In this document: piece by piece, positions 4,588 through 30,473 of the stretch
Layout of the letters: each line of letters starts with the position of its first letter
Position numbering within the stretch: the first letter of the stretch is position 1
IMG/VR virus record: IMGVR_UViG_3300049215_000070
DNA: 64,000 nt
DNA from: a virus
Taxonomy: Duplodnaviria; Heunggongvirae; Uroviricota; Caudoviricetes
Reading direction: 5' to 3' (one strand)
The notes under the pieces: model-generated
Databases searched by the model: none
The model's input: the letters and a program-made list of their open reading frames with translations, nothing else
Told to the model about the DNA's origin: nothing
Made by a program: the position numbers and the translations under genes

Positions 4588-4589
4588 CT

Positions 4590-11865: not shown

Positions 11866-11877
11866 GGAGTCATGTAA

Positions 11878-12795: not shown

Positions 12796-12801
12796 GTAAC
12801 G

Positions 12802-12833: not shown

Positions 12834-12840
12834 CCATGTT

Positions 12841-12876
12841 AGACTCTCTTCTGGAGTAATAACCAGGAGAGAGTCT
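12841..12876 (+). promoter_or_regulatory. RBS-sequestering hairpin in front of the endonuclease VII gene
   Basis: AGACTCTCTTCTGG agtaataa CCAGGAGAGAGTCT: 14-bp stem with one mismatch. The 3' arm contains the AGGAGA RBS and abuts the TTG start at 12876. Confidence 0.5.
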
Positions 12877-13364
12877 TGAAACTCTGTACAATCGATGGGT
12901 GCGGCAACAAGCACCAAGCCAAAGGCATGTGTAACAAGCACTACATGCGCCAATGGTATCTCGATCACCCTGAAGGCAAGATTGCCGCCAAGGTGAGAAT
13001 GAGTCAGGTTCCGCGTGCGATAATGCGGGACAGGGCGCTGCGATACGCTTACGGGGTTGACTCGAAGTGGTACGCAGAGCAACTGGCAAAACAGAACGGC
13101 GTGTGCGCCATCTGTCACAAGCCAGAAACGAAGTTCATGAAGGGCACGCTAATGCGGCTCGCAGTGGACCACTGCCACGACACCGGCAAGGTGCGCGGCC
13201 TCTTATGCCAGGCGTGCAATCGCGGCATAGGCTGTTTCAATCATGACCCGATGTTGCTACGCAGCGCCATCGAGTATCTTTCACCTACGGTCAGCCCAAC
13301 ACCGACCCCTGAAGGCTGGCCTCTGATCCGCTGCCGGGGTAGCGCCTCTACGACACACGCCTGA
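12876..13364 (+). CDS. endonuclease VII-type HNH (homing) endonuclease
   Basis: AVDHCHDTGKVRGLLCQACNRGIG motif. N-terminal CxxC...C..H Zn motif. TTG start with AGGAGA RBS. Confidence 0.8.
   Translation: MKLCTIDGCGNKHQAKGMCNKHYMRQWYLDHPEGKIAAKVRMSQVPRAIMRDRALRYAYGVDSKWYAEQLAKQNGVCAICHKPETKFMKGTLMRLAVDHCHDTGKVRGLLCQACNRGIGCFNHDPMLLRSAIEYLSPTVSPTPTPEGWPLIRCRGSASTTHA
13289..13315 (+). repeat. 27-bp direct repeat, copy A (GTCAGCCCAACACCGACCCCTGAAGGC)
   Basis: Matches 13440..13466 with one mismatch. Lies inside the 3' end of the endonuclease VII ORF. Confidence 0.8.
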
Positions 13365-13439
13365 AAAACGTTCTTGTCGCAAGCGCCCCCGGCATTTTGA
13401 TTTCTTCTCTCAAACCGTAGCCACGCTACGATAACCAGC

Positions 13440-13466
13440 GTCAGCCCAAAACCGACCCCTGAAGGC
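13440..13466 (+). repeat. 27-bp direct repeat, copy B (GTCAGCCCAAAACCGACCCCTGAAGGC)
   Basis: Lies in the intergenic region 33 nt upstream of the next gene start (13499). Confidence 0.8.
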
Positions 13467-13498
13467 GGCGAGAAAGCACGAGGCGCAAAGGTGCAATA

Positions 13499-14743
13499 AT
13501 GCGTACATCCCTATCCGGTCCTGTAATCCTTTACGGGAACGACAATCCCCAGCAGATCAGCGAAACTGACTCTGGTCCGAACATCGACTACCAGGCCAAT
13601 GCCGTACTCGACTCTCGCTACGTTTCGCAGGTAACTGCGGCTGGCGAAGGAGCACAAGCAGGCATCCTTTGCTGGTCAAACCCTGTTGAGATGGAGCTTC
13701 TGAGCTACGTCCCGGCAGCGGCCAACGCCGCCAACATCGCCGCCGCTCAGTCGCCGACAGTGGGCGGATTCTTCACGCTCGCGACAAGCAGCACCAACGC
13801 AGTCTGCGCGAACATCCCGCTGGTCCCTCAAGGTACCGCGATTCAGCCGACGGCGACCACAATCCCTGTCCTGGCTTTGGACTTTGGCTTTGCTCAGGTC
13901 ACCACGACCACGGCGGCGGGCACGGCGAACATTCTCACGATTACTGGTCCTTCTCCGACCGGTTACACCTCGACCGCCACCTACGGTTCGCGTTTTTTCT
14001 ACCCGGGTCAGCGCATCCTGGTAGGCGGCGCGGGCAACGCCGCGGGCACGGTTCCGCTGTCCACCATCGTTCTAGCGACCGACCGTTACGCAGCCCCGGG
14101 CTACGCGGTGCAGGCCGCTGGCACGGTACTGATTGCAAACAACGCGCTCTTCGCGGGCACCAACCTTCCGGTCGGCACCAGCGATCAAGAGTACGGCGTC
14201 GCCGTCAAGCCGGTCGTCAAAGCTGGCGCGGCTCGCGTCTATGATCCGGCGCAGATGGGCACACGTCAGGTTATCGTCACCGCATCCGGCGCCTCCACGG
14301 GCACTGTTACCATTCGCGGTTACGACATATACGAGCAGCCGATGTCTGAAACACAGACCATTGTCGGCTCGGGTGTGACGGTTCCGAAAAAGGCTTTCGG
14401 CTACGTCTCCAGCGTCCAGCTGAACGTTGGCTCGACGCTGACGGGCACGCTTTCGGTGGGAACAAACAGCACCATCGGTCTACCGATCCGTGTTGACGAG
14501 TTTGAGTACGCCGGGATATTCGTCAGCGGCGCTCAGATTTTTTCAGCAACCGGACTCACGTTTGCCGACCAAACCCCGACGGCCACCTCTACCACGGGCG
14601 ACGTGCGTGGAACCTACACGATGCAGACGGCGCCGAACGGCACCACGAACCGTGTGGTGCTCTTCTACCAGAAGCCCATCGCGACAGCCAAGGTATCCAG
14701 CAACATCGACTTCCGTGGCTTCACGGGCGTCACCAACGCTTAA
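13499..14743 (+). CDS. virion structural protein (414 aa, Thr/Ala/Gly-rich)
   Basis: Large ORF in the structural block. No specific motif. Confidence 0.55.
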   Translation: MRTSLSGPVILYGNDNPQQISETDSGPNIDYQANAVLDSRYVSQVTAAGEGAQAGILCWSNPVEMELLSYVPAAANAANIAAAQSPTVGGFFTLATSSTNAVCANIPLVPQGTAIQPTATTIPVLALDFGFAQVTTTTAAGTANILTITGPSPTGYTSTATYGSRFFYPGQRILVGGAGNAAGTVPLSTIVLATDRYAAPGYAVQAAGTVLIANNALFAGTNLPVGTSDQEYGVAVKPVVKAGAARVYDPAQMGTRQVIVTASGASTGTVTIRGYDIYEQPMSETQTIVGSGVTVPKKAFGYVSSVQLNVGSTLTGTLSVGTNSTIGLPIRVDEFEYAGIFVSGAQIFSATGLTFADQTPTATSTTGDVRGTYTMQTAPNGTTNRVVLFYQKPIATAKVSSNIDFRGFTGVTNA

Positions 14744-14756
14744 TACGGAGAACATC

Positions 14757-14912
14757 ATGTCCTTAGTATTTAATTTCCCTGTCGGTTTGGTTTTCGGCGC
14801 GGTCGCCGCGGTTGTCTCTTCCAAGGTCTACTCCTGGGTAAAATCCAAGGTAGTCGCCCCGGTGGAGACGAAAGTCGCCTCAGTGGAGAGCGCCGTCGAA
14901 AAGAAGGCGTAA
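14757..14912 (+). CDS. small membrane protein (51 aa)
   Basis: GGAGAACATC ATG. MSLVFNFPVGLVFGAVAAVVSS hydrophobic N-terminus. Confidence 0.45.
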   Translation: MSLVFNFPVGLVFGAVAAVVSSKVYSWVKSKVVAPVETKVASVESAVEKKA

Positions 14913-14915
14913 GCC

Positions 14916-15263
14916 GTGAAGCTTACCCAGAACAGCTACGTCATCACTGGGGTAGGCAACTCCCCGCTGATACCTCTCGACACGCACGTCAACCCGGTCG
15001 AGGTGTTTGGCTCGATCATCGACGGTGGCGCTTCTACGTATGCGGTTCATTACACCACCGCTGATGTATTTGCGCCAGGATACAGCGCAGCGGCTGATGC
15101 GATTCTTAACTCAAGCACCATCCCTACCGGGCCGACGACCGGCAGCAAGCCGTTCAATTTCAGCGCCGCTGGCGCCACCGCGATCCAACTCCAGGTCACC
15201 GTAGGTCCCGCAACGGTCACGCTTGGCCCAGTATTCCAGTCTGACAACACTTTGGGCGCATAA
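14916..15263 (+). CDS. small structural protein (115 aa)
   Basis: GTG start 3 nt after the upstream stop. Thr/Gly/Ala-rich. Confidence 0.45.
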   Translation: MKLTQNSYVITGVGNSPLIPLDTHVNPVEVFGSIIDGGASTYAVHYTTADVFAPGYSAAADAILNSSTIPTGPTTGSKPFNFSAAGATAIQLQVTVGPATVTLGPVFQSDNTLGA

Positions 15264-15298
15264 GCGGCAGTTAAAAGGCAGTATGATAAAATTGACGT

Positions 15299-15736
15299 AT
15301 GCCAAAAGCCAAGGATGCGTCAAAGAGATTTTTCACCGGGGTACCATGTAAGCATGGTCACATATCGGAGCGATGGACCAACAATGGACGTTGCATCGAA
15401 TGCCGGATGAATTATCAGGGAACCAGGAAAGACTACTATCGGCGCAAGGGTCGAGAGGCTTACTGGAATGATCCAGACAGAAAACAAAAAACCCTGGACA
15501 ACACCAGGAAGCAGCGCGGACTACCACAGCCGGAAAGACCGCCGCCAGCACACTGCGAATTGTGCGGCAAAAAATCAACCAGGAATTTATGCCTGGATCA
15601 CGACCACCAAAACGGCAGGTTTCGCGGCTGGCTATGCGGCAATTGCAATAGCGGTCTCGGTAAGCTTGGCGACACATCGGAAGCACTAATGAAAGCACTC
15701 GCTTACTTGGACAGGGCGTCACAGTCATGGCGGTGA
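15299..15736 (+). CDS. endonuclease VII-type HNH (homing) endonuclease, second copy
   Basis: LCLDHDHQNGRFRGWLCGNCNSGLGKLGD plus N-terminal C..H...C..C Zn motif. Lower GC than its flanks. Confidence 0.8.
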   Translation: MPKAKDASKRFFTGVPCKHGHISERWTNNGRCIECRMNYQGTRKDYYRRKGREAYWNDPDRKQKTLDNTRKQRGLPQPERPPPAHCELCGKKSTRNLCLDHDHQNGRFRGWLCGNCNSGLGKLGDTSEALMKALAYLDRASQSWR

Positions 15737-16968
15737 CCTATGTGAAAGACTTCTCCTTCCCCTCCGACTTTGGATTTTCCAAGAACGGCAGCGCTAGCGT
15801 CCCAGGAAAAGCCAAAGGGGGCCGCGCAACGACCCCACAAGCTTACCGCGAGGGCGGCAAGGTCCAGCCTGCGCAGTCGAAGTACTCCGGTCACGTCGCC
15901 AAGTCTGACGCCAAGCCGATGTCGGGTGCCGGGGCCAAGAATCTCTCCTACGGCAAAGCTTCGATGCCCGCCAAGACCACGATGGAAAAGAGCAGCGGCA
16001 TGCAGTCCCCGGCATTCAAGTCGGGCGGCAAGGCAGAGCGCAATGCGTCGATGATGAAGTCGCACATGGCGCGCCGCGCGAACGGTGGCGCGGCAACTGC
16101 CGAAGCCCCGGTTCCCATGGGCAAGAAATCCAGCTGGAACAAAGACGACGCCGTCAGCCCGGGAAGCTTCAAACGCACCCCGCCGAAGCAAGGCGCCAAG
16201 AACCCTGAATCCGCACGCGACAAGTTCGCCGCGAAGACCGCAGAGCCTGCCACCAAGCAAGAGGGCGACGTTGAGCGCATGAGCGGCTGGTCCGACTTCA
16301 AGAAGGGCGGCAAGGTAACGAAAAAGAAAATGGGCGGCGGTGTTCAAGACCGTTACGAGTCCAGCGACGGCTCAGGCTCTATGTCCAAGGACAAGACCGG
16401 CACCTCGAAGAAGATCAAAGGCACCCCAGCGTACAATTCGGGTGGTCGCATCAAGAGCATGGGCAAGTACGCGCACGGCGGCAAGGTCTGGAAAGACGGC
16501 AGTACTCAGAAACCCGGCGGCGACGCCAAGTACGAAAAGGCCGCGGGAACTCCGAAGCGGGACCACTTGTCGACCAAGGGCGAAGTCGAATCCGGCAAAG
16601 CAACCGGCAAGAGCACCGCACCCGCGCAGGGCGAGAAGCGCATGGCCCAAGGTGGCCTAAGCCGCGCCACCAGCCCGAAGCGAAACGCCGCGATTCACGC
16701 GAAGTCTCGCAAAGTATCTCCTGGCGCCTCGCTGGGCGCATTGGCGAGCGTTCTGGGCGGCGCGGGCGTACCGCATCAGCCGAGCGCACCGGGCATGGGT
16801 CCGTCGCCTCCTGGGATGGCACCTGGGATGGCACCTGGGATGGGTTCCCCTCCGGGTGGGCAAATGGGTGCAATGCGGCCTCAGGCGCCTGGCCCTGGCG
16901 CTCCTGCGATGGCTGGCGGTGGTTCCGTAAAACATGTAATGGTTCACCATATCTCGTACAAGAAGTAA
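15727..16968 (+). CDS. lysine-rich, highly basic low-complexity virion protein with ~8 GG[KR][VA] motifs and a Pro/Gly/Met-rich C-terminus
   Basis: 413 aa. Contains REGGKVQ, KSGGKAE, KKGGKVT, NSGGRIK, AHGGKVW, PGMAPGMAPGMG. No enzymatic motif. Confidence 0.6.
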   Translation: MAVTYVKDFSFPSDFGFSKNGSASVPGKAKGGRATTPQAYREGGKVQPAQSKYSGHVAKSDAKPMSGAGAKNLSYGKASMPAKTTMEKSSGMQSPAFKSGGKAERNASMMKSHMARRANGGAATAEAPVPMGKKSSWNKDDAVSPGSFKRTPPKQGAKNPESARDKFAAKTAEPATKQEGDVERMSGWSDFKKGGKVTKKKMGGGVQDRYESSDGSGSMSKDKTGTSKKIKGTPAYNSGGRIKSMGKYAHGGKVWKDGSTQKPGGDAKYEKAAGTPKRDHLSTKGEVESGKATGKSTAPAQGEKRMAQGGLSRATSPKRNAAIHAKSRKVSPGASLGALASVLGGAGVPHQPSAPGMGPSPPGMAPGMAPGMGSPPGGQMGAMRPQAPGPGAPAMAGGGSVKHVMVHHISYKK

Positions 16969-17038
16969 TTCCGGGATATTCGATATTCGCGAATCGCGAA
17001 CTCCCTGATTCGCATAAGATTCTAGGAAGTAATCGCTG

Positions 17039-18094
17039 ATGGCGTCTACCAATCAGGGCACGGTCAACCCGCTACTCACGACCGGCACCTACAACAACAT
17101 AGCGATTGACAACCGCACGTTCATTGACCGTGTGTACGGCGCGTTGAAGCTGCGCCCGCAGCAGATCACCGCCGAGATGATTTTGATTGGCCTGGACATG
17201 ATAAACCTCGTGCAGCTCGACATGCTGAACGACGCCGCGCCGCTTTGGACCCTTCGCAAGTACATCCAGCCCCTGTACCAGGGTCAGCAGCAGTACGTGC
17301 TCCCGCCGAGCACAAACGACGTCACGAAGGCGTTTTACCGGACGATGTCGAACCTGACCAGCTCCGCGACAATCACAAACTCGACCGCGTACTACCAGTG
17401 GAGCTTCACGCAGCCTACGCAGGTCACCACAATCAATCTGAACTGGCCGTCCGCGAGCTTCCCGGTGCAGTACCAGTACAGCCTTGACAACGTCAACTGG
17501 AGCACCGCGGCAAACTCAAGCAGCACTCACAACGGCATTGTTGGGTACAGCGCGCAAGACATCGACAACGCCAGCGCGTACCAGTACTGGCGCGTCATCC
17601 CGGCCACCAGCCAAAACGGGGTGCCGATTACGGTGCCCAATACTTTGCCGCTGACGCTGAGCGGGCAGGTGTACAATACCCCTGCGGACATAGAAATGTA
17701 CCGCATGAACCGGGACGATTACTGGAACCTGACCAACAAGACCTTCCAGGGGAGACCGCTGCAGTGGTGGATGGATCGTCAAATATACCCGCAGATGGAT
17801 CTCTGGCCCGCGCCAGACGCCACCGCGGCTCAGAATTTCATGGTGGTCTGGCGGCAGCGCATGATCGCCGACGCAGGCAGCCTGCAGAACACGCTAGAGA
17901 TCCCGCCGCGCTGGTACCTGGCGTTTTTTTATCGTGTCGCCGCCGAGCTGGCTTTTTGCACACCAGAGGTTGACCCCGAGGTCACCGGGCAGATTCAGGC
18001 CAAGTCGGATGCTCACTGGAAACGCGCCTGGGGTGAGGAGCGCGACAAGTCCCCAATCAAGTTCCAGACGCAGATCGGGGTTTATACTCGATGA
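17039..18094 (+). CDS. virion or tail structural protein (351 aa)
   Basis: ORF in the structural block. Asn/Thr/Gln-rich. Confidence 0.5.
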   Translation: MASTNQGTVNPLLTTGTYNNIAIDNRTFIDRVYGALKLRPQQITAEMILIGLDMINLVQLDMLNDAAPLWTLRKYIQPLYQGQQQYVLPPSTNDVTKAFYRTMSNLTSSATITNSTAYYQWSFTQPTQVTTINLNWPSASFPVQYQYSLDNVNWSTAANSSSTHNGIVGYSAQDIDNASAYQYWRVIPATSQNGVPITVPNTLPLTLSGQVYNTPADIEMYRMNRDDYWNLTNKTFQGRPLQWWMDRQIYPQMDLWPAPDATAAQNFMVVWRQRMIADAGSLQNTLEIPPRWYLAFFYRVAAELAFCTPEVDPEVTGQIQAKSDAHWKRAWGEERDKSPIKFQTQIGVYTR

Positions 18095-18468
18095 GCTTGT
18101 ATCTCGACACGCGCGGAAACGCAAACGTCGCCATCGGTATATGCGGCAGATGCTCGCTGAAGTACCCGCTGGTGGACTTGCATCCTGATCCAAACAGCCC
18201 CGGCCTGATGGTGTGCGGCACCCCGGGGGCGATGACCGGCAAAGGGACATGGGTTGGCGGCTGGGGATGCGCGGACATGCTCGACCCGTACCGTTTGCGG
18301 ACTCACGAGACCGAGAACATCACGCTTGAGTACCCACGCCCTGACGTCAAGCTTCCGGTGCCTGGGTACGTCACGGTCGCTCCCGGGGACGCCAACTGGC
18401 CCCCATCACAATTTCCTGACGACGGCCTTCAAGCCGCGCAGCTTCCTTCAACTGGGAATAGTTCGTAA
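18091..18468 (+). CDS. hypothetical structural protein (125 aa)
   Basis: ATGA coupling. Confidence 0.45.
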   Translation: MSLYLDTRGNANVAIGICGRCSLKYPLVDLHPDPNSPGLMVCGTPGAMTGKGTWVGGWGCADMLDPYRLRTHETENITLEYPRPDVKLPVPGYVTVAPGDANWPPSQFPDDGLQAAQLPSTGNSS

Positions 18469-18806
18469 TGCAGACAGCAACGATCATCGGCATAGAAGCG
18501 ACATCCGGCCTCACGACCAGCCTCGCAAACATCGGCAACTACGTGGTACCGGTATCAACCAGCGCCGTCATCAGCCATCTATTCGTCGCCAACAAGTCTG
18601 GCTCTCCAATTACCGCTAGCGTTTACGTCTACAACGGCAGCACGGGATATTACCTAGCGTACCAGGCCCCGATTGCGGTAAATGACACGCTGAATTTGCT
18701 TGGAGAGAACGGCAAGATCACGCTCGCGACTGGATGGAGCATCCAAGCCAGCGCAAGCTCTGCGTCTGTTGCTGACGCATCCATGTCAGTCACTCAGTTC
18801 GTGTAA
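18468..18806 (+). CDS. hypothetical structural protein (112 aa)
   Basis: TAATG coupling. Confidence 0.45.
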   Translation: MQTATIIGIEATSGLTTSLANIGNYVVPVSTSAVISHLFVANKSGSPITASVYVYNGSTGYYLAYQAPIAVNDTLNLLGENGKITLATGWSIQASASSASVADASMSVTQFV

Positions 18807-18809
18807 TCC

Positions 18810-20329: not shown

Positions 20330-20346
20330 ACTCACAAGGAAATCAC

Positions 20347-20628: not shown

Positions 20629-20813
20629 ACGAGCAGCACCCGCACCAGGCCTACCTGGCGCTCACAAGTTTTACGGTATCGGTTGGTGGAGCAACAGTGG
20701 CCTGGTTATCTCAAGTCGAGCAATTTTTGCGTATAGGATCAAGCATGATTGCCATTGTTGCGGGTATCACCTCGATCGTCTACTACGGCAAGCAGAACAA
20801 ATGGTGGAGGTAG
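20625..20813 (+). CDS. holin-like small membrane protein (2 predicted TM, 62 aa)
   Basis: ATGA coupling. Hydrophobic stretches AYLALTSFTVSVGGATVAWL and IGSSMIAIVAGITSIVYYG. Sits directly upstream of the endolysin. Confidence 0.5.
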   Translation: MNEQHPHQAYLALTSFTVSVGGATVAWLSQVEQFLRIGSSMIAIVAGITSIVYYGKQNKWWR

Positions 20814-20814
20814 T

Positions 20815-21357
20815 ATGTCAGCCTTCGACGTTGCATTTGAACAGCTCATCGGCATTGAAGGAAGATACTCCAGCGACGAGTCCGACCCGGGCAACTGGAC
20901 ATCAGGCAAGGTTGGAACCGGAGAGTGTCGTGGCACTATGTACGGGATCTCTGCAGCAGCGTACCCAAACCTGGATATTGCGGGGCTTAGTCTCGCCAAA
21001 GCCAAGTCAATCTATTTCACTGACTACTGGAGCAGGCTCCGGTGCTCAAACTTTCCCGATGCCATAGCGATTGCGCTTTTCAAGGAAGGCGTAAATCTTG
21101 GGGTTGAGGGCGCAGCGAAAGCGCTCCAGCGCAGCTTAAAAGCCACCGTCGACGGCAACATCGGGCAGCTGACAATTGGCCTTGCCACGTCCAAGGCACC
21201 GAAAGACTGCCTCACCGATTTCCTGACGCAGTGCGCTTACGATTACACGCAAATGGAAAATTTCAAGATTGACGGCAAGGGCTGGCTGTCGCGCGTCATC
21301 AAGACCGCGGTTGAGTCTACGCTTACCGGCAACGAGCTTATGGAGCTTAAAGCGTAA
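20815..21357 (+). CDS. endolysin, glycoside hydrolase family 108-like with C-terminal peptidoglycan-binding region
   Basis: AFEQLIGIEGRYSSDESDPGNWTSGKVGTGECRGTMYGIS matches the GH108 N-terminal signature. GGAGG RBS. Confidence 0.7.
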   Translation: MSAFDVAFEQLIGIEGRYSSDESDPGNWTSGKVGTGECRGTMYGISAAAYPNLDIAGLSLAKAKSIYFTDYWSRLRCSNFPDAIAIALFKEGVNLGVEGAAKALQRSLKATVDGNIGQLTIGLATSKAPKDCLTDFLTQCAYDYTQMENFKIDGKGWLSRVIKTAVESTLTGNELMELKA

Positions 21358-21757
21358 ATCTCAGCAAGTACGCCTTCATCGAATCCAGAATCTCTGGTCG
21401 ATCCCTGGTTGCGCCAAGAACCAGGCTGCACTGCGAACAAAGCAGCCCACGGATAACACCGCTGGCGTGGAAATGGTCCACATGGGGCGTATCGTCCTCA
21501 GTGGTAAAATGGTTGGGGCAGATGGCGCATTTCCCCCCTTGGGATTGGAGCATGTCATTGTACTGCTCAGGGGTGATGCCCCACTTCCTGCGCCTGTGAG
21601 CCGCACTGAAGAACTCGGGTCCTTTTCTTGCGCGGTAAGCAAAATCCCAGGCTTTCCTGCACTTTTTACATGCGGTCTGAAGCCCGTCTTTCATTTTTTT
21701 GGCGCGGTTAAATTCAGAATGCGGCAGATCACTCTTACACCCAGAGCAGTATTTCAT
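21347..21757 (-). CDS. endonuclease VII-type HNH (homing) endonuclease, third copy
   Basis: KCAICPNHFTTEDDTPHVDHFHASGVIRGLLCSQCSLVLG. Start taken at MKYCSGCKS. Convergent with the endolysin (11-bp overlap), divergent with the holin. Confidence 0.75.
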   Translation of the reverse strand: MKYCSGCKSDLPHSEFNRAKKMKDGLQTACKKCRKAWDFAYRARKGPEFFSAAHRRRKWGITPEQYNDMLQSQGGKCAICPNHFTTEDDTPHVDHFHASGVIRGLLCSQCSLVLGATRDRPEILDSMKAYLLRFTL

Positions 21758-22205
21758 GGGAATTTTCGACACAGTTATCGCTCCAATTGCCAGTATAATA
21801 AATCGTATTATACCTGACAAAGCAGCCGCAGCCGCTGCAATTGCACAACTCAATCAATTGACCCTGCAAGGCCAACTCCAAGAGGAACTGGTCCAGCTGC
21901 AGTCTGTCACGGTCAATCAAACCGACGTCAACAAAGTAGAGGCTGCTAGTCCTAGCATGTTTGTCGCTGGTCCTCGCCCCGCTATAATGTGGGTGTGCGC
22001 ACTTGCTCTGTTTTACCAGTACCTAGTGAGGCCAATAGCCACTGGATTGGCGTTAATTGCATCGCATCCAATTCCCGCGCCAGGGCTCCCAGGAATAGAC
22101 GACAACCTGTACCAACTTATGTTCGCGTTGCTTGGCATTGGAGCGATGCGTTCTTACGACAAAACAAAAGGAACAGAAACAAAATCAGTTTCTTTTTTTA
22201 AATAG
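21747..22205 (+). CDS. holin (3-TM type; MGIFDTVIAPIA... N-terminus)
   Basis: Three hydrophobic segments. N-terminal motif recalled from 3-TM holins of Gram-negative phages. Adjacent to the endolysin. Confidence 0.5.
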   Translation, partial: QYFMGIFDTVIAPIASIINRIIPDKAAAAAAIAQLNQLTLQGQLQEELVQLQSVTVNQTDVNKVEAASPSMFVAGPRPAIMWVCALALFYQYLVRPIATGLALIASHPIPAPGLPGIDDNLYQLMFALLGIGAMRSYDKTKGTETKSVSFFK

Positions 22206-22220
22206 GCTAGGTTAAATCAA

Positions 22221-22895: not shown

Positions 22896-24133
22896 CCACG
22901 TACACAAATATATTTACAGGCGCTTTGGTTGCGCCCGCTCTTGCTGCGTACAATTCGATTACGCTTACGGCGAACCTGCAGCTGCAATGGCCGCTGGAAA
23001 CCGCGCCCAACTCCAACCTTTGCACGCCGCTAATCGACATCAATAGCTCGACCTCGGGATCGTATGGGCTAATTCTTCCGCCTGCGACTTCCGTAGGAGT
23101 CGGCACGTTCATCATCGTAAACAACCTGAGCGCGTACCCGCAGGCAGTTTACAACAACAGCGGCGCCATTATTGTGGCATCTCAGGCCTCAGGATCTGTT
23201 TTCTTTTACTACCTTCAGAACAACACCACCGCCGCGGGCACATGGTTTGCTTTCCAGTACGGCTCTGCAGTATCGACACCCTCAGTAGCCGCCATCGCTG
23301 GCCCAGGATTGGTTGCCTTAGGGTCGCAGCTGGGGCAGAACATGAGCGTTACGACGCTTTCTTCGCCATACACCATAGGTGTCAACGACCGAGATAAGTT
23401 TTTCAACTGGAACGCAGGCGCTGGAACCGTAACGTTGCCGCAGGCCGCGACCGCTGGTGGCGGGTACTATGTGCAACTGCGCAACTCTGGTAGCTCAATC
23501 CTATCCATCGCGCCCGTAGCGTCTGACACCATTAACGGCGGTTACAACAGCGCGACCCCGCTGCCGCTAAACCCTGGTGACAGTTGTTTCATTGTGACTG
23601 ACGGCACGGTTTGGTACACCATTGGCCTTGGCCCATCCATTCAGGCGGCGTTCAATTTCGTCACCATCAGCGTGACCGGGTTGTCCGGCACGTACACCCT
23701 AAGCGGCACGCAGCTGAACCAGGTCGGGTACCGATTCACAGGCACCAAATCTGGCAACCTTGAGATCATCGTACCCTCGACCAAGCAAGAGTACTGGGTC
23801 AACAACCAGACCGACAACACATACACGCTCACCATAGGAACCGCCAGCCAAACGTCCCCAACGCCGCCGACCATTGCTTACAACGGCAGCTCGATTTTCT
23901 ATTGTGACGGATCTAACGTTTACAACGCCACCCCGTCGAGCGCCATCACCTCGATACCGATTCCGATTGCGCAGGGTGGCACCAACTCGACCACCGCCGC
24001 TGGGGCGCTTACCAACCTTGGCGGAACCTCCATCGGCACCTCGTTGTTTACTGCCGTAAGCAACGCCGCCGCGCAGCAGGCTATCGGCGCACCGTCGACC
24101 GCTGACATGTTCCTCTGGGCTATGGTCCTGTAA
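22892..24133 (+). CDS. tail fibre protein with three internal ~100-aa repeats and a C-terminal PIAQGGTNSTTAAGALTNLG motif
   Basis: Conserved fibre motif (I/L)PIxxGGTGATTAAGARxNLG near the C-terminus. Confidence 0.65.
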   Translation: MTTYTNIFTGALVAPALAAYNSITLTANLQLQWPLETAPNSNLCTPLIDINSSTSGSYGLILPPATSVGVGTFIIVNNLSAYPQAVYNNSGAIIVASQASGSVFFYYLQNNTTAAGTWFAFQYGSAVSTPSVAAIAGPGLVALGSQLGQNMSVTTLSSPYTIGVNDRDKFFNWNAGAGTVTLPQAATAGGGYYVQLRNSGSSILSIAPVASDTINGGYNSATPLPLNPGDSCFIVTDGTVWYTIGLGPSIQAAFNFVTISVTGLSGTYTLSGTQLNQVGYRFTGTKSGNLEIIVPSTKQEYWVNNQTDNTYTLTIGTASQTSPTPPTIAYNGSSIFYCDGSNVYNATPSSAITSIPIPIAQGGTNSTTAAGALTNLGGTSIGTSLFTAVSNAAAQQAIGAPSTADMFLWAMVL

Positions 24134-25998
24134 TGGCGCTGATCCCCCTTGCATCCGCTCCTGGGATACAGCGAGATGGAACATTTTTGGCATCTACCGC
24201 GCACACGGACGGGCAGTGGTGCCGCTGGCAGCGCGGGCTGCCGCGAAAGATCGGCGGGTACAAGGTCATTCAGCCGTACCTGACGGGCATCGAGAGACTG
24301 TTTTTTACCCAGGCGCAAAGCGGTTACCGGTACCTTGCCGCGGGAAATGCGAACGGCATCGATACTTTTACCGTTGACAACTTTGGCGTCTGCTCAAGCG
24401 TTCAGAATCCGAAGTTTCCTGCGACCACCAACCCGACGACCACGGGCCTGCCGACGAACACGGTGAACCTGCAGCCGTACACTCAGATCAACAGCTGGCA
24501 GATGGAGTCGCAGTTCGACAACGCCACCAACCAAACGCTGCTGTTTCTATTCGCCAATCAGAACCTACTGGACCCCGCAAACGGAGAAAACTTTCCGCTG
24601 TACTCGACGCCGATCTACAGCCCAAACGGCAACGGTAACTTTGCAACGTTTACTGGCTCCGTGAGCGGGACCACGCTGACCGTATCTGGCGTTACCGGCA
24701 CAATATCAATAGGACAATACCTGACTGGATTTGGCATTCCTTCCGGCACGCTCATTACTGGCGGCAGCGGCACATCGTGGACGCTGGGTGCCAACTTAGG
24801 GACAATCGGCGCAGAGGCCATGTCGTCCGGTTCGATCTTCCAGGTGCAGGGGTACGGCACCGGCAGCGACGGTCACGGCGGGACTCAGCAGGCATTATTT
24901 CCCAACGGCATCAGCGGGGGCATGGTCAGCCTTGCACCGTACATGATCGTCTACGGGAACAACGGTTTTTTCGCGTGGAGCAGCCCCGGTTACCCTACCG
25001 ACTTTGTGGGCACTTCCTTGGGATCATTGTACGTTGGCGCTACCGAGATTACCAACCAGAAAATAATAAAAGGTTTCCCGCTTAGGGGTGGTGGAGGCTA
25101 TTCGCCCGCCGGTATCTTCTGGAGCGTAGACAGCGTCGTCCGCGCGACCTTTATTGGTGTCACAAATGGCACATGGCAATTCGACCAGCTCACGACGCAG
25201 TCGAGTCTGCTCAGCGACCGGTGCATTGTTGAGCACGACGGCGCGTTCTACTGGGCCGGTGTGGATCGATTTTTGATGTACAACGGCGTGGTTGGAGAAA
25301 TACCAAACTCGATGAACCTTAACTGGTTTTTTGACGGCATCAATACCACGTACGCCAGCAAGTCTTTCGCGATGAAAGTGCCAAGGTACGGCGAGATCTG
25401 GTGGTGCTACCCGCGCGGTAACAACACCGAGTGCAGCCACGCGGTGATATACAACTACCGAGAAAAGTCTTGGTACGACACACCGCTGCCAAACACCGGG
25501 CGCAGCGCGGGATTGCACGCCGACAACCTGGTAGGAAACCTGATGGCAGGTATTTTGCCGTACACGTCGAGCGTCAGCGGCACAACGCAAACGTACTACA
25601 ATATGTGGGATCACGAAATCGGCACCGACGAGATTAACGGCGTATTTCAAAATGCCGTAAACTCGTATTTTACGACCGCGCCCATTACGAATTACAACGC
25701 GCAGCCTCCGAACGCCGCGACCACGAGCGTTGAGCTGCTTGAGCCAGATTTTATCCAATCGCAGAACATGACCGTCAGCGTTTTGAAGCAGAACAACGCG
25801 AACGCCCCGGTAGTTACAGGGTCGGTGGTCACGCTTGAGCCAGATCCCACTAGCACCGGCACATTGAATCAGATAGTGCCGCTCAAAGACACCGCCAAGA
25901 TCATTCGTATTCAGGTACAGAGCAACGTCGTCGGTGGGAACTTTCAGGCCGGTAAGTCGATGCTCACGATCAACGCGGACGGCGAGCGGAGCACGTAA
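24133..25998 (+). CDS. large tail or virion structural protein (621 aa)
   Basis: TAATG coupling to the fibre gene. Asn/Gly/Thr-rich. Confidence 0.5.
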   Translation: MALIPLASAPGIQRDGTFLASTAHTDGQWCRWQRGLPRKIGGYKVIQPYLTGIERLFFTQAQSGYRYLAAGNANGIDTFTVDNFGVCSSVQNPKFPATTNPTTTGLPTNTVNLQPYTQINSWQMESQFDNATNQTLLFLFANQNLLDPANGENFPLYSTPIYSPNGNGNFATFTGSVSGTTLTVSGVTGTISIGQYLTGFGIPSGTLITGGSGTSWTLGANLGTIGAEAMSSGSIFQVQGYGTGSDGHGGTQQALFPNGISGGMVSLAPYMIVYGNNGFFAWSSPGYPTDFVGTSLGSLYVGATEITNQKIIKGFPLRGGGGYSPAGIFWSVDSVVRATFIGVTNGTWQFDQLTTQSSLLSDRCIVEHDGAFYWAGVDRFLMYNGVVGEIPNSMNLNWFFDGINTTYASKSFAMKVPRYGEIWWCYPRGNNTECSHAVIYNYREKSWYDTPLPNTGRSAGLHADNLVGNLMAGILPYTSSVSGTTQTYYNMWDHEIGTDEINGVFQNAVNSYFTTAPITNYNAQPPNAATTSVELLEPDFIQSQNMTVSVLKQNNANAPVVTGSVVTLEPDPTSTGTLNQIVPLKDTAKIIRIQVQSNVVGGNFQAGKSMLTINADGERST

Positions 25999-26265
25999 AT
26001 GCAGATACCAGATCCCAACGGCATGGATCTGGATCAGTGGGTATACGGGACACTGTCCGTGCTGACCAATTACCCGAACCCGCGCACCATGGTCAATGAC
26101 GACTGGCGGCAGTGGGGTATGATGTTTTTTGACACCCCTTCGCTGTCTACGCTAGGTCCGCCAAACCCGTACGATTACGCGGAATGGCGACCATGGGCAG
26201 AGCGACTAGCCGAGAGCCTTGGCAACGCCCCGGGGTCTCCAACGCCTATCACGAAGACAGCATAA
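25999..26265 (+). CDS. hypothetical protein (88 aa, Trp/Pro-rich)
   Basis: TAAATG coupling. Confidence 0.45.
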   Translation: MQIPDPNGMDLDQWVYGTLSVLTNYPNPRTMVNDDWRQWGMMFFDTPSLSTLGPPNPYDYAEWRPWAERLAESLGNAPGSPTPITKTA

Positions 26266-26282
26266 TGCCTATAGGATAAAAA

Positions 26283-27710
26283 ATGAAATTAAACATAGAT
26301 GGAGACCCAACAACAGGAAAATCTGCTGCTGCATTGGAAAATTCCAAAGCCAATCAAGAAGCAGCTGCTCAAGCCAAACTTAACGCAGAGCTTCAGCCAT
26401 ATGCTCAGCAAACTATTGCAGATTTAAATAGCGGAAATTATTCTGGCGCATGGAACGAGGCTTTGCAATCATCGCCGCTGTACAACACGAATTACAGCTC
26501 ACAGACAACAGATCCTTTGCTTGCCGATATGGAGTCTGCACAAGGTCTGCAGGAGCTTGATCCAAGCATTCAGTGGAACGCTACAAATACGGCTGCGTAT
26601 TACAATGCTCTAGGTCAAAATCCTGTTTACAGCGGGCAAACGGTCAAGGGGGCGAATGGCGGCACAGAAAGCTTAGGTCAAAATCCGTACGGGGACTGGG
26701 GAGCTGGGGCTGCCGTTACCAATGGAACAGACGCAAAAGCAAATCTAACGCAGGACCCCAATTCATCCCCCAATGTTTCGCAGTTCGCTGGGGCGAGACC
26801 TCGCGCTTCATTTCTTGATAAATACGGCGCCGATATTGCGGCAATTGTTGCCACGGTGGCAACCGCTGGGGCTGGAGCACCGGCTCTTGGAGCGGCCCTT
26901 GCTGGGTCAGCGGCATCGGACCTAGTCAATGGTGCAGAAGGTAAATTAACCCTGAGCGGCGCCCTTGAGGGAGCCGGGATGGCGGCTCTTGGAGCCGCGG
27001 TTCCAGGCGCAAGTAGCGCTTTAAATTCCGCCACAGGAAACGCGCTAGGCACAGTCGGTTCGAACGCGTTAGTGGGCGCCGGGGTTGGTGCGCTTGGGTC
27101 AAAGCTAACCGGAGGCAATCCATTGGTTGGAGCCATAGGAGGCGGCGCGGGGGGTGCTATACAAGCATCCGGGATAAACAATACAGTCGGGCAGCAAATT
27201 AATAGCGCCACCGGACTCCCTGTATCTGTTGGGGCTGGTTTATCTGGCGGTGCATTAGGCGCAGGGGTTGGCGCTATCACGGGCAGCTTGAGCGGCCAGG
27301 GGGCAGCAAATGGCGCCTTAATGGGTGGAGTTGGGGGCGCTCTAAGGGCTGGCGTTGGATCGGCAACTGGAAACCAGACCATAGGTAACGTTGCTGGTAC
27401 AATAGGCAGTGCCCTAGCGGGCAAATACTTGACGTCTTCCCCGGCGGCTGCTACCGCAGCAGCCGCACCGGCTACTGCTACCGTTGCGGCGGCAAAAACA
27501 CCTACGCCTGCTGCAACAACTGCCGCGCAAACAGCACCTGCGCCGACGCCTCTTTTCCAGCAGCCAACCAATATTGGCACGTACAACTTCAACAGCACCG
27601 GATTGGGTTACCAGCCAATGAGCCAGGTTAATCCAGGAATTACCAATTACGCGACTTACGGGCAAGGACCAGAAGCAAACTTCTTTGCCCCCACGCCAGG
27701 AACAACATGA
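26283..27710 (+). CDS. internal virion (ejection) protein, Gly/Ala-rich with glycine-zipper-like segments
   Basis: Long GxxxG-type runs. C-terminal NYATYGQGPEANFF motif shared with the next gene. Confidence 0.5.
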   Translation: MKLNIDGDPTTGKSAAALENSKANQEAAAQAKLNAELQPYAQQTIADLNSGNYSGAWNEALQSSPLYNTNYSSQTTDPLLADMESAQGLQELDPSIQWNATNTAAYYNALGQNPVYSGQTVKGANGGTESLGQNPYGDWGAGAAVTNGTDAKANLTQDPNSSPNVSQFAGARPRASFLDKYGADIAAIVATVATAGAGAPALGAALAGSAASDLVNGAEGKLTLSGALEGAGMAALGAAVPGASSALNSATGNALGTVGSNALVGAGVGALGSKLTGGNPLVGAIGGGAGGAIQASGINNTVGQQINSATGLPVSVGAGLSGGALGAGVGAITGSLSGQGAANGALMGGVGGALRAGVGSATGNQTIGNVAGTIGSALAGKYLTSSPAAATAAAAPATATVAAAKTPTPAATTAAQTAPAPTPLFQQPTNIGTYNFNSTGLGYQPMSQVNPGITNYATYGQGPEANFFAPTPGTT

Positions 27711-27807
27711 GAGAAACGTCCGGTATAAGGCAACTTGGCGCACTAGGCGACAACATCGAAGGGCTGGAAAAGCTCATTTCTTACCTCCGTCGAGCGGAAT
27801 CACATTA

Positions 27808-29265
27808 ATGTCGAAACTCAGAGAAATCTACAAGGGCTCATTCAAAGGGCGTCGTAACAAGCACGACGTGGTAACGGCGTACGACGGCGGATACATGGAT
27901 TTTTCCACGTCCTCTTTCGATCCGAGCACGGTTGTTCCCACGGCGGTTGACACCGGGTACGGCAGCGGCTACAACCCCAGCACCGACCCCAATGTCGCCG
28001 GTTACACGGGATCACAAGACAGCAGCCTTGCGGCGCCCGCGGCCACGGGGCTGGATCAAAATTACCTGTCGACAATCAACGCCGAGCTTGCCGCCGACCC
28101 TACCGGAGAAAACGCCGCCGCCAGTTTTGATAGCAGCAAATCAAAATCTGGCTCATCTTCTGGCTCATCTGCCGCGTCAAGCGCCGCAGGTGGTGCGCTT
28201 GGTACGCTACTCAAGGCGCTGGGTCTTGGGAGCGGAAACACCAGCGCGCAAGGTATCACCGCGCTGGCCGGGCTGCTCTCTGCCGCTGGGCAGTACAAGC
28301 AAAACTCCGCGTACGCGCCGACGTTTGCGCCGCCCGCGTTATTTGGCGGGACCTCAGGGACCACATCCGGCAACACCGCAGGCATCGCGTCGACCGGGTA
28401 CGGACCCGCTGGCGGCTACAACTACGCCAACTACAAAGGCCTGGTAGCGGGCGCCCCCGGGCTGGGTTACGCGCCGCAGACCGCGACCACGCCCACGATC
28501 CCAAATTACTACACCTACGGTCAGGGTCCGCAGCAGAGCTTTTTCACCACGACGCCGTCGAGCGCCACGCAGCCCACCGCAATGAAAAAAGGCGGCAAGG
28601 TCAGCACGCCGCAGCGTTTTGCCATGGGCGGGTTCAACACCGGCATGATGCCGCCCGTCCACCCCAACATGGGCACGATCACCCCCAGTATGGGGGTGCC
28701 TAGCGCCAATCCAATGGCGGGCGGTATTACGACCAGCGGCCCGTCAAACCCGACCGGCACGCCATCCTTTGGCGCAATGCCCGCGCAACGCGGCGCGCAA
28801 GTGCGCCCGGCGGTCCCGGCCACAATGCCTCCGCAGCAGACCCACACGCAGCCCATGCCGGGTCGAGCCTTTGCGAATGGCGGCAGCGCCGCGCCTCAAG
28901 CGTCGTCCTCGTCGTTTACCAGCCAGGTGCCTCAAAACCTGTCTGGGGTGCTCTCAGGGATGCGCAAAGCCTCTACCCCTAGTCACGCACCCCCGCTGGC
29001 TACGGGCGGCGCCTTGGCCTCCGTAAGCCGTCACGTCAAGGGTCCGGGGGATGGTACTAATGACAAAATTCCGGCACGCCTATCGCCCGGAGAATTCGTA
29101 ATTTCTGCGGATGTTGTAAGCGGCATCGGTAATGGTGACAATGGTGCAGGCGCCAGAAAACTCGATGCGTTTATGAAAAACGTCAGGAAGCACAAAGCAG
29201 AAAATGGATCTAAGGGTAAATTGCCAGCCAATGCTAGGCCAGTGGCAAGTTATCTAGGGAAGTAG
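27808..29265 (+). CDS. internal virion (ejection) protein, paralogous to upstream gene
   Basis: Shares NYYTYGQGPQQSFF. Contains KKGGKVS and FANGGSA motifs. Confidence 0.5.
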   Translation: MSKLREIYKGSFKGRRNKHDVVTAYDGGYMDFSTSSFDPSTVVPTAVDTGYGSGYNPSTDPNVAGYTGSQDSSLAAPAATGLDQNYLSTINAELAADPTGENAAASFDSSKSKSGSSSGSSAASSAAGGALGTLLKALGLGSGNTSAQGITALAGLLSAAGQYKQNSAYAPTFAPPALFGGTSGTTSGNTAGIASTGYGPAGGYNYANYKGLVAGAPGLGYAPQTATTPTIPNYYTYGQGPQQSFFTTTPSSATQPTAMKKGGKVSTPQRFAMGGFNTGMMPPVHPNMGTITPSMGVPSANPMAGGITTSGPSNPTGTPSFGAMPAQRGAQVRPAVPATMPPQQTHTQPMPGRAFANGGSAAPQASSSSFTSQVPQNLSGVLSGMRKASTPSHAPPLATGGALASVSRHVKGPGDGTNDKIPARLSPGEFVISADVVSGIGNGDNGAGARKLDAFMKNVRKHKAENGSKGKLPANARPVASYLGK

Positions 29266-29267
29266 CT

Positions 29268-29375
29268 ATGTATCGCGTTTACCAAATTATCAATGCTGAG
29301 TCTAAAAAAAGATACATCGGAATGACCAGAATGTCAGGACGCGAGCACTTCGGACACGCGTCAGTGGTGGCGTAA
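29268..29375 (+). pseudogene. GIY-YIG homing endonuclease N-terminal remnant (35 codons)
   Basis: MYRVYQIINAESKKRYIGMTRMSGREHFGH aligns with GIYxIxN...YIGS..R..H of I-TevI-like enzymes. AT-richer island. TAATG overlap with the next gene. Confidence 0.55.
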
Positions 29376-30472: not shown

Positions 30473-30473
30473 C

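What the first reader, a model, noticed from the sequence alone, without database searches (positions are those of the whole stretch)
12876..29375. Unusually high load of free-standing endonucleases inside the structural module (3 Endo VII-type HNH + 1 GIY-YIG remnant)
Three paralogous Endo VII/HNH genes (12876..13364, 15299..15736, and 21347..21757 on the minus strand) and a truncated GIY-YIG gene (29268..29375) interrupt otherwise tightly coupled head, tail and lysis genes. The non-structural operon adds an HNH, a Ref-like HNH and a VRR-NUC nuclease. The third Endo VII sits on the opposite strand, wedged between the endolysin and the holin with 11-bp overlaps on both sides. This suggests ongoing intron-less homing and possible nuclease-mediated exclusion of co-infecting relatives.
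Basis: partly seen in the sequence, partly recalled or inferred. Interest (0 to 1): 0.55.

Follow-up and report, generated by a model that had tools for sequence, protein, structure and literature searches.

The report
Selfish endonuclease genes in phage structural module
This environmental phage genome carries three stand-alone Endo VII-type nuclease genes and the stub of a GIY-YIG nuclease gene wedged between its head, tail and lysis genes; close relatives lack them at those junctions, so they are ordinary mobile "homing endonuclease" genes, a well-known kind of selfish phage DNA.

Summary
The ORFs at 12876-13364 (+), 15299-15736 (+) and 21347-21757/21772 (-) all match Pfam Endonuclease_7 strongly. 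The 35-codon ORF at 29268-29375 is a real 5' remnant of a GIY-YIG gene: one relative has an intact GIY-YIG gene at the same junction.

The three Endo VII genes are not recent duplicates. They share 35-42% identity in the catalytic core only and have different N-terminal zinc modules. Each has an ortholog at the same junction in some related environmental phages and is cleanly absent from others. Two relatives that are 95-98% identical differ almost only by five endonuclease-sized cassettes. The slot after the highly conserved capsid gene is a family-wide hot spot, occupied by an Endo VII or a GIY-YIG gene in 17 of 75 loci.

These are therefore free-standing homing endonuclease genes of the known Endo VII-motif (DHHRN, F-CphI-like) and GIY-YIG kinds. 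Spread by intronless homing is inferred, not shown.

Corrections:
- The holin starts at 21756, so the overlap on that side is 2 or 17 nt, not 11.
- E3 has Ser at the metal-binding Asn (T4 N62) and may be inactive.
- No separate HNH was found in the non-structural operon.

This is a new member of a known kind, of modest interest.

The parts
12876..13364 (+). E1: free-standing Endo VII-motif endonuclease gene (162 aa, TTG start). It has an N-terminal C-x2-C...C-x2-H zinc module and a C-terminal core, CAIC...VDHCH...VRGLLCQACN. It lies between the capsid gene and g414.
   Evidence: PF02945 1.4e-21; phrog_2914 2.4e-33. Orthologs occupy the same slot in L088 (72%) and L006/L090 (70%). The slot is empty in L085, L089 and L096. 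dN/dS against L088 is 0.18.
15299..15736 (+). E2: free-standing Endo VII-motif endonuclease gene (145 aa). It has a different N-terminal module (GVPCKHGH...CIEC) and the core CELC...LDHDH...FRGWLCGNCN. It is inserted between g115 and g413 and overlaps the g413 start by 10 nt.
   Evidence: PF02945 2.6e-17. The only ortholog is in L088 (56%) at the same junction. In L085, L089 and L091, g115 and g413 are 2-5 nt apart. GC is 52% and GC3 56%, against 58-63% and 67-73% in the neighbouring genes. dN/dS is 0.15.
21347..21772 (-). E3: Endo VII-motif endonuclease gene on the opposite strand, between the endolysin and the holin. The start is GTG 21772 (GGAG 8 nt upstream) or ATG 21757. It has an N-terminal CxxC...CxxC ribbon and the core CAIC...VDHFH...IRGLLCSQCS.
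   Evidence: PF02945 5e-20. The ortholog (68%) has the same orientation and junction in L086/L087 only. It is absent in L088, L089, L096, L166, L167, L171 and L173. Start codons were analysed.
21425..21427 (-). Ser codon (AGC) of E3 at the position of T4 Endo VII Asn62, the metal ligand. It is one transition away from AAC.
   Evidence: The alignment to PDB 1e7d pairs 'rgllcsqcS' with 'rgllcnlcN'; codon read. The L086 ortholog keeps Asn. N62D in T4 Endo VII and N118A/D in F-CphI are inactive (PMC6083498).
21792..21820 (-). Sigma-70-like promoter match (TTGTCA-17-TATACT), 19 nt upstream of E3's GTG start. It lies antisense within holin codons 13-22.
   Evidence: It ties for the best match (10 of 12) in 12000-30000, but the total number of matches there is not above the shuffled background. 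In L086 only a TATAAT -10 box is conserved at the equivalent place, and no full match is called. Its function is inferred only.
29268..29375 (+). 35-codon remnant of a GIY-YIG homing endonuclease gene. The N-terminal 'YRVYQIINAESKKRYIGMT' motif is retained; the rest of the catalytic domain is deleted. Its stop codon overlaps the g365 start (TAATG).
   Evidence: Family GIY-YIG HMM E 5e-4, the sole significant segment in the window. It is 62% identical over 21 aa to the intact GIY-YIG gene of L092 at the same junction. GC is 45%.
11878..12795 (+). Major capsid gene, the conserved upstream flank of the E1 slot. It is 77-100% identical in protein across the 80 best of 597 tblastn-confirmed related contigs.
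   Evidence: PF25209 6.5e-11.
13499..14743 (+). g414, the downstream flank of the E1 slot.
   Evidence: Synteny maps. Homology to the empty alleles resumes at window position 13453.
14916..15263 (+). g115, the upstream flank of the E2 slot.
15727..16968 (+). g413, the downstream flank of the E2 slot.
20749..21357 (+). Endolysin (GH108). Its last 11 nt overlap the 3' end of E3.
   Evidence: PF05838 1.5e-15.
21756..22205 (+). Holin (GTA_holin_3TM). Its first ~18 codons are AT-rich and recoded in the genomes that carry E3, compared with L088, which lacks it.
   Evidence: PF11351 1.1e-22. N-termini MGIFDT (window), MAIWDT (L086) and MSIWDT (L088). L086-L088 identity dips on the holin side only.
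27685..29265 (+). g526, the upstream flank of the GIY-YIG remnant.
29375..30472 (+). g365, the downstream flank of the GIY-YIG remnant.
48194..48643 (+). Ref-like RecA-dependent nuclease, in the non-structural operon and outside the finding's span.
   Evidence: PF16786 8.9e-18.
48847..49230 (+). VRR-NUC nuclease, in the non-structural operon and outside the finding's span.
   Evidence: PF08774 2.2e-5, 24.9 bits against a 23.8-bit cut-off.

Best explanation
E1, E2 and E3 are free-standing homing endonuclease genes of the Endo VII-motif (DHHRN, F-CphI-like) class. The ORF at 29268-29375 is the decayed stub of a fourth such gene, of the GIY-YIG class. Each is a selfish cassette of about 0.4-0.6 kb sitting in a junction between conserved late genes.

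Inferred mechanism, from established knowledge of T4 seg/mob genes and F-CphI:
1. During mixed infection, the nuclease cuts the cassette-free allele of a related phage near the empty junction.
2. The break is repaired by recombination with the cassette-bearing genome.
3. The cassette and some flanking sequence are copied in.

The three Endo VII genes were acquired independently, not duplicated in place. E1 and E2 keep all catalytic residues and have evolved under purifying selection, so they are probably active. E3 keeps the fold but has Ser at the metal-binding Asn, so it may be newly inactivated. The GIY-YIG gene is already destroyed. Together these look like successive stages of the gain, decay and loss cycle of homing endonuclease genes.

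E3 is transcribed against the late operon, probably from a promoter-like sequence embedded in the recoded first codons of the holin gene.

Shown here: identity of the domains, stand-alone position, sporadic distribution, cassette-sized indels between near-identical genomes, and replacement of one nuclease family by another at one slot. Inferred: cleavage, target sites, homing, and any exclusion effect.
For: Domain identity:
- PF02945 matches at 1e-17 to 1e-21.
- E3 aligns with T4 Endo VII structures.
- Each Endo VII motif is C-terminal, behind a different N-terminal zinc module. That is the arrangement of the 'endonuclease clade' rather than the resolvase clade in PMC6083498.

Sporadic distribution at fixed junctions:
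- E1 orthologs are in L088 (72%) and L006 (70%). A different Endo VII occupies the same slot in L005/L091 (36-38%) and in L086 (45% by tblastn, 53% by blastp; different N-terminus). The slot is empty in L085, L089, L096, KcrB and MW202545.
- E2 is found only in L088. E3 is found only in L086/L087.
- An intact GIY-YIG gene sits at the remnant's junction in L092. That junction is empty in L085, L086, L090 and L091.

Near-isogenic pairs:
- L086 and L088 are 95-98% identical over about 10 kb and differ at five junctions. Four differences are endonuclease ORFs present in one genome only: the E2 ortholog, the E3 ortholog, a 94-aa phrog_3322 endonuclease and a 133-aa HNH (phrog_2255). The fifth is a swap between two different Endo VII genes.
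- L023 and L048 are 94% identical, but the capsid-downstream slot holds an Endo VII in one and a GIY-YIG in the other.

Other support:
- Hot spot: 17 of 75 loci carry an Endo VII (11) or a GIY-YIG (6) directly after the capsid gene. Other recurrent slots are g351|g125, g224|g413b and the region upstream of g224.
- Identity between L086 and L088 falls to 40-73% over about 150 nt on the holin side of E3, while the endolysin side stays at 100%. This looks like a co-conversion or recoding tract.
- E2, E3 and the remnant have lower GC than their neighbours.
- dN/dS is about 0.15-0.18 for E1 and E2.
- Each of E1-E3 is as close or closer (about 40%, over more of its length) to endonuclease VII/HNH genes of unrelated cultured phages than to the other two.
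Against: - No cleavage site, target sequence or homing event can be shown with sequence tools.
- The closest relatives of the window itself are only about 70-85% identical in DNA. Exact insertion boundaries and co-conversion tracts in the window's own lineage could therefore not be defined. The cleanest evidence comes from pairs of relatives (L086/L088, L023/L048).
- E3 lacks the conserved Asn, so at least one of the three may no longer act as a nuclease.
- Purifying selection on E1 and E2 is equally compatible with a function that benefits the phage.
- The promoter-like match for E3 is not statistically distinguishable from background, and only its -10 box is conserved in L086.
Confidence: 0.8

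Rival explanations
1. One or more of the Endo VII genes is a housekeeping enzyme of the phage. It would be a T4 gp49-like Holliday-junction resolvase or debranching nuclease needed before packaging, which would explain its place in the late operon.
For: The catalytic core is homologous to T4 endonuclease VII. E1 and E2 are under purifying selection. They lie among late genes.
Against: None of the three is conserved in relatives; each junction is empty in several close genomes. The motif is C-terminal behind DNA-binding zinc modules, unlike the N-terminal motif plus dimerisation domain of the resolvase clade. The genome also has VRR-NUC, Ref-like and PD-(D/E)XK-type nucleases that could process junctions.
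Confidence: 0.05
2. The cassettes are mobile but were placed by illegitimate or modular recombination ('morons' at gene boundaries). The nuclease would play no part in its own spread.
For: Only presence/absence and mosaic boundaries are observed. One alternative occupant of the E2 slot, in L086, is an 89-aa ORF with no nuclease signature.
Against: Nearly all variable cassettes at these junctions encode site-specific-type nucleases from at least four families: Endo VII, GIY-YIG, an HNH and phrog_3322. Different nuclease families recur at the same slot next to the most conserved gene. That is the pattern expected of nuclease-driven homing rather than random moron gain.
Confidence: 0.08
3. The nucleases have been retained or domesticated for competition or regulation. 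They might exclude co-infecting relatives, counter host defence, or (for E3) control holin expression through antisense transcription or DNA binding after loss of catalysis.
For: E3 is antisense to the holin start, has a promoter-like match inside the holin codons, and has lost the metal-binding Asn. E1 and E2 are under purifying selection. Marker exclusion by T4 seg and mob genes is established (PMC2988022, listed).
Against: There is no direct evidence. The E3 ortholog in L086 keeps the Asn, so the Ser is a single recent transition. The promoter match is weak statistically and is not reproduced in L086. E3 is absent from most relatives, which have the same endolysin-holin arrangement.
Confidence: 0.07

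Closest known systems
F-CphI / DHHRN family of homing endonucleases (cyanophage S-PM2 ORF177; Fang et al. 2018, PMC6083498)
   Same: The Endo VII catalytic motif (CX2-4C, DH.H, R, CX2C-N) lies at the C-terminus behind a separate N-terminal region. The genes are free-standing and phage-encoded, next to a conserved gene. E1 and E2 keep every residue shown to be essential in F-CphI.
   Different: [quoted passage not shown] Here no intron is involved, the targets are unknown, the N-terminal modules differ, and E3 has Ser in place of the essential Asn.
T4 seg (GIY-YIG) and mob (HNH) free-standing homing endonucleases; intronless homing and marker exclusion (PMC2988022)
   Same: Stand-alone nuclease ORFs are inserted between conserved genes. 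They are sporadically present among relatives, belong to several families within one genome, and include decayed copies.
   Different: The catalytic family for E1-E3 is Endo VII-motif rather than classical HNH. The phage lineage is different: an uncultured relative of the Caulobacter 'Riverwalkvirus' phages. Homing has not been demonstrated here.
'Endonuclease VII' / HNH genes annotated in cultured phages, including mycobacteriophages and Klebsiella phages
   Same: They share the domain and have similar sizes. Some records place them beside virion genes such as scaffold or internal virion proteins. Matching phage records number 1771, 351 and 1637 for E1, E2 and E3.
   Different: Identity is only about 30-43%. 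Most of those genes are annotated by homology, without functional tests.
T4 endonuclease VII (gp49), Holliday-junction resolvase
   Same: The beta-beta-alpha-metal catalytic core and zinc-binding cysteines are homologous.
   Different: In gp49 the motif is N-terminal, followed by a helical dimerisation domain, and the gene is conserved among T4-like phages. Here the motif is C-terminal and the genes are sporadic.

Membership tests
Pfam PF02945 Endonuclease_7 | Profile match above the gathering score (23.6 bits) | tested here: met
   E1 76.6 bits, E2 62.9 bits, E3 71.6 bits.
DHHRN (Endo VII-motif) homing endonucleases, PMC6083498 | N-terminal CX2-4C and C-terminal CX2C zinc ligands flanking the DH.H motif | tested here: met
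   E1 has CAIC...DHCH...CQAC, E2 has CELC...DHDH...CGNC and E3 has CAIC...DHFH...CSQC.
DHHRN (Endo VII-motif) homing endonucleases, PMC6083498 | Conserved Arg (T4 R54) and Asn (T4 N62, metal ligand) after the DH.H motif | tested here: inconclusive
   Arg is present in all three. Asn is present in E1 and E2. In E3 the Asn is replaced by Ser. So the feature is met for E1 and E2 and not met for E3.
DHHRN (Endo VII-motif) homing endonucleases, PMC6083498 | Motif located at the C-terminus (endonuclease clade), not the N-terminus (resolvase clade) | tested here: met
   The Pfam match covers residues 55-136 of 162 (E1), 84-138 of 145 (E2) and 86-163 of 168 (E3). Clade definition. No joint phylogeny with the published set was built.
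Free-standing homing endonuclease gene | Stand-alone ORF between genes, not inside an intron or intein | tested here: met
   All four lie in junctions between intact flanking genes. In relatives that lack them, the flanking genes are 2-150 nt apart.
Free-standing homing endonuclease gene | Sporadic presence or absence among closely related genomes at the same site | tested here: met
   Near-isogenic pairs: L086/L088 and L023/L048.
Free-standing homing endonuclease gene | Site-specific cleavage of the cassette-free allele near the insertion point | not testable with these tools
   This needs an in vitro cleavage assay or mixed infection.
Free-standing homing endonuclease gene | Co-conversion of flanking markers around the cassette | tested here: inconclusive
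   L086-L088 identity drops to 40-73% over about 150 nt on the holin side of E3, and at the 3' end of g413 next to the L088 cassette. Other junctions have sharp edges. This is compatible with co-conversion but not diagnostic.
GIY-YIG nuclease (PF01541) | Complete catalytic domain: the GIY and YIG motifs plus the downstream Arg, Glu and Asn | tested here: not met
   The window ORF has no Pfam hit. Only the first ~21 residues match the family. The intact homolog in L092 scores 2e-13. The window ORF is therefore a remnant, not a functional member.
T4 gp49-type Holliday-junction resolvase | N-terminal catalytic motif with a C-terminal dimerisation domain, and conservation across relatives | tested here: not met
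   The motif is C-terminal, the alignment to 1e7d covers only T4 residues 11-68, and the genes are absent from most relatives.

The most novel reading that the evidence does not exclude
E3 is no longer a selfish nuclease. It would be a domesticated, catalytically dead DNA-binding protein or antisense transcription unit. Its promoter is written into the recoded first codons of the holin gene, so that E3 expression and holin expression interfere with each other and tune lysis timing.
Probability: 0.05. Interest if true: 0.65.

Novelty: new member of a known kind. Interest (0 to 1): 0.27.

Why it matters
The finding adds little conceptually. Free-standing Endo VII-motif and GIY-YIG homing endonuclease genes in phage genomes are well documented.

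Its practical value is as a natural system. It has a few well-defined junctions where at least four nuclease families compete. The slot after an extremely conserved capsid gene is one such junction. The family also includes near-isogenic genome pairs that differ only by these cassettes. Those pairs provide ready-made cassette-plus and cassette-minus alleles for mapping target sites and for studying turnover of homing endonuclease genes through gain, replacement, point inactivation and deletion.

For annotation, the three genes should be called homing endonucleases rather than recombination endonuclease VII (resolvase).

Tried and rejected
- Megablast of 12000-32000 against cultured phages found nothing. 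Distant blastn found only the capsid gene in the Caulobacter phages RW/KcrB/RLK/GB2A and in MW202545. These are too distant (30-55% protein identity outside the capsid) to define insertion edges.
- The metagenome scan found no relative closer than 86% protein identity for g224 and mostly repeated the IMG/VR contigs. The window's own cassette-free alleles were therefore not found.
- Nucleotide alignment of the GIY-YIG remnant to both ends of the L092 gene did not show where the deletion lies.
- I searched for conserved empty-junction sequences (candidate target sites) at the endolysin|holin junction. Only L086, L088 and the window share this holin N-terminus, so no consensus could be derived.
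- The promoter scan of L086 did not reproduce the full -35/-10 match upstream of the E3 ortholog.
- Pfam gave no hit for the 94-aa and 133-aa cassette ORFs of L088 and L086. PHROGs identified both as endonucleases.
- Recent duplication was considered and rejected: core identity is only 35-42%, the N-termini differ, and each gene has its own ortholog elsewhere.
- A packaging-associated HNH was considered and rejected: the genes are not next to the terminase and are not conserved.
- The 'Serglycin' Pfam hits are artefacts of the Gly-Ser linkers I used to join ORFs.

Full report
**What the window is.** The 64-kb window is one 58,993-bp phage genome read past its own start. Positions 1-5007 repeat at 58994-64000 with three clustered mismatches. 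Almost all genes between about 2.5 and 40 kb lie on the + strand. They run in the order terminase, portal, GroES-like, capsid, tail/adaptor, lysis, tail. No close cultured relative exists. The nearest are Caulobacter phages RW/KcrB/RLK/GB2A (the proposed genus Riverwalkvirus, PMC11053796) and the environmental genome MW202545. These share gene order, but protein identity outside the capsid is only 26-55%.

**Checking the observation.**
- All three claimed ORFs match Pfam Endonuclease_7 well above the 23.6-bit threshold: E1 76.6 bits, E2 62.9 bits, E3 71.6 bits. PHROG 'endonuclease VII' families agree.
- A profile built from all family members finds exactly these three Endo VII ORFs in the genome.
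- The 35-codon ORF at 29268-29375 has no Pfam or PHROG hit. However, a profile of 28 GIY-YIG genes from related contigs picks it out as the only significant six-frame segment of the window (E 5e-4; next best 1.2).
- Locus L092 carries an intact 183-aa GIY-YIG gene (PF01541, 2e-13) at exactly the same junction between g526 and g365. Its first 21 residues are 62% identical to the window ORF. The 'remnant' reading is therefore correct.
- The Ref-like nuclease (48194-48643) and the VRR-NUC nuclease (48847-49230) are confirmed.
- A further HNH in the non-structural operon was not found.

**Two details need correction.**
- The holin starts at ATG 21756. Its N-terminus, MGIFDT..., is homologous to MAIWDT... 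in L086 and MSIWDT... in L088; position 21747 is not a start codon.
- E3 probably starts at GTG 21772, which has a GGAG 8 nt upstream and matches the ortholog's start. ATG 21757 is the alternative. The 11-nt overlap therefore holds only at the endolysin end.

**Not duplicates.** E1, E2 and E3 share only 35-42% identity over 43-80 residues of the catalytic core and have three unrelated N-terminal zinc modules. Each is as close or closer (about 40%, over more of its length) to endonuclease VII/HNH genes of unrelated cultured phages such as Klebsiella, Pectobacterium and Synechococcus phages. Each also has its own ortholog at its own junction in another contig of this family:
- E1 in L088 (72%) and L006/L090 (70%);
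- E2 in L088 (56%);
- E3 in L086/L087 (68%, same inverted orientation).

**Mobility.** That test clearly fails.
- The capsid|g414 slot is empty (about 100-150 nt) in L085, L089, L096, KcrB and MW202545.
- g115 and g413 are only 2-5 nt apart in L085, L089 and L091.
- The endolysin is followed directly by the holin in L088, L089, L096, L167, L171 and L173.
- g526 and g365 abut in L085, L086, L090 and L091.

The most telling comparison is L086 against L088. They are 95-98% identical over about 10 kb, yet differ at five junctions:
1. a swap between two different Endo VII genes after the capsid;
2. an E2 ortholog in L088, against an unrelated 89-aa ORF in L086;
3. a 94-aa endonuclease (phrog_3322, 2.7e-25) found only in L088;
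4. a 133-aa HNH endonuclease (phrog_2255, 6.5e-23) found only in L086;
5. the E3 ortholog, found only in L086.

A second pair, L023 and L048, is 94% identical. The capsid-downstream slot holds an Endo VII in one and a GIY-YIG in the other.

Across the family, 17 of 75 loci with enough sequence after the capsid gene carry an Endo VII (11) or a GIY-YIG (6) in that slot. The junctions g351|g125, g224|g413b and the region upstream of g224 are further recurrent sites. The capsid protein is by far the most conserved protein of the family, at 77-100% identity against 26-55% for its neighbours. That is the kind of sequence homing endonucleases typically target.

**Further support.**
- E2, E3 and the remnant are poorer in G+C than their neighbours.
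- dN/dS of E1 and E2 against their orthologs is 0.15-0.18, so these proteins have been maintained by selection.
- Next to E3, identity between L086 and L088 falls to 40-73% for about 150 nt into the holin gene, while the endolysin side stays at 100%.
- The first ~18 holin codons are recoded and AT-rich in the two genomes that carry E3. This looks like a co-converted or immunising flank, but it is not proof of one.

**State of the four elements.** E1 and E2 keep every residue defined for the Endo VII-motif (DHHRN) homing endonuclease family and shown to be essential in F-CphI and T4 Endo VII: the zinc cysteines, D, H, H, R and N. E3 aligns to T4 Endo VII with Ser (AGC, 21425-21427) at Asn62, the metal ligand. 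N62D in T4 Endo VII and N118A/D in F-CphI are inactive, and the L086 ortholog keeps Asn. E3 may therefore have been inactivated by a single recent transition. The GIY-YIG gene is reduced to a stub. The genome thus shows an intact, a possibly dead and a deleted stage side by side.

**Expression of E3.** On the minus strand, 19 nt upstream of GTG 21772, lies TTGTCA-17-TATACT. It ties for the best sigma-70-like match in 18 kb (10 of 12). It sits inside the holin's first codons. The number of such matches is not above background, though, and in L086 only a TATAAT -10 box is conserved. This is a lead, not a result.

**Mechanism.** What is shown is the identity of the domains, their stand-alone position, and their gain, loss and replacement at fixed junctions. 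What is inferred, from T4 seg/mob genes and F-CphI, is a three-step process: the nuclease cleaves the empty allele of a co-infecting relative, the break is repaired by recombination, and the cassette is copied in with its flanks. Localised exclusion of the competitor's markers would be a by-product.

A housekeeping resolvase role is unlikely. The genes are not conserved, and the motif sits C-terminally behind DNA-binding modules, as in the endonuclease clade rather than the resolvase clade of PMC6083498.

**Novelty.** Free-standing homing endonucleases of the Endo VII-motif and GIY-YIG classes are known, and homologs are annotated in well over a thousand cultured phage genomes. The load here is high for this phage family: three Endo VII genes plus a remnant in 16.5 kb, when 120 of 164 related loci have none detectable. 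It is not high by the standards of T4. This is a new member of a known kind. It is useful mainly as a well-populated natural system for studying target sites and turnover of homing endonucleases.

Noticed in passing
window 1-5007 and 58994-64000: The window wraps around a 58,993-bp genome. The two copies differ at only three positions, clustered within 68 nt (4876, 4889, 4943). This could reflect a long terminal repeat, a concatemeric assembly or population variants.
   Followed up: partly
window 52638-54467 (+): A 609-aa ORF in the non-structural operon carries a glycoside hydrolase family 5 (cellulase) domain (PF00150, 1.3e-23). This is an unusual enzyme for this part of a phage genome and may be a polysaccharide depolymerase.
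   Followed up: no
window 41935-42405 (-) and 42626-42964 (-): A dATP/dGTP diphosphohydrolase N-terminal domain (PF18909, 1.9e-28) and a MazG pyrophosphohydrolase (PF03819) lie in the leftward early cluster. Both are nucleotide-pool enzymes, which hints at manipulation of dNTPs.
   Followed up: no
L001 2445-5248 (Caulobacter phage KcrB) and L007 2141-4462: The large terminase gene is split in some relatives. In KcrB a SAM-dependent methyltransferase ORF sits between two terminase fragments. In L007 about 1 kb separates two matching parts. These may be introns, inteins or further mobile insertions. The window's terminase gene (2983-4587) is intact.
   Followed up: no
L023 10512-11448 vs L048 10917-11675: Two contigs that are 94% identical carry different nuclease families in the slot after the capsid gene: a 226-aa Endo VII and a 198-aa GIY-YIG. 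This is a case of allelic replacement between homing endonuclease families.
   Followed up: partly
L173 2312-5824: About 3.5 kb of extra sequence lies between the homologs of g413 and g351. In the window these two genes are 70 nt apart.
   Followed up: no
window 11878-12795: The capsid protein is 100% identical to that of contig L005, although the DNA over 11002-12796 (capsid plus upstream genes) is only about 84% identical and neighbouring proteins are 36-93% identical. Purifying selection on this protein is extreme across the whole family.
   Followed up: partly
window 50153-51166 (+) and 49719-50363 (+): A PD-(D/E)XK-like exonuclease (phrog_298, 1.9e-11) and an RNA ligase (PF09414; phrog_548, 2.9e-23) sit next to the Ref-like and VRR-NUC nucleases. 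Their long ORFs overlap as listed, so the true start of the exonuclease is probably further downstream.
   Followed up: no
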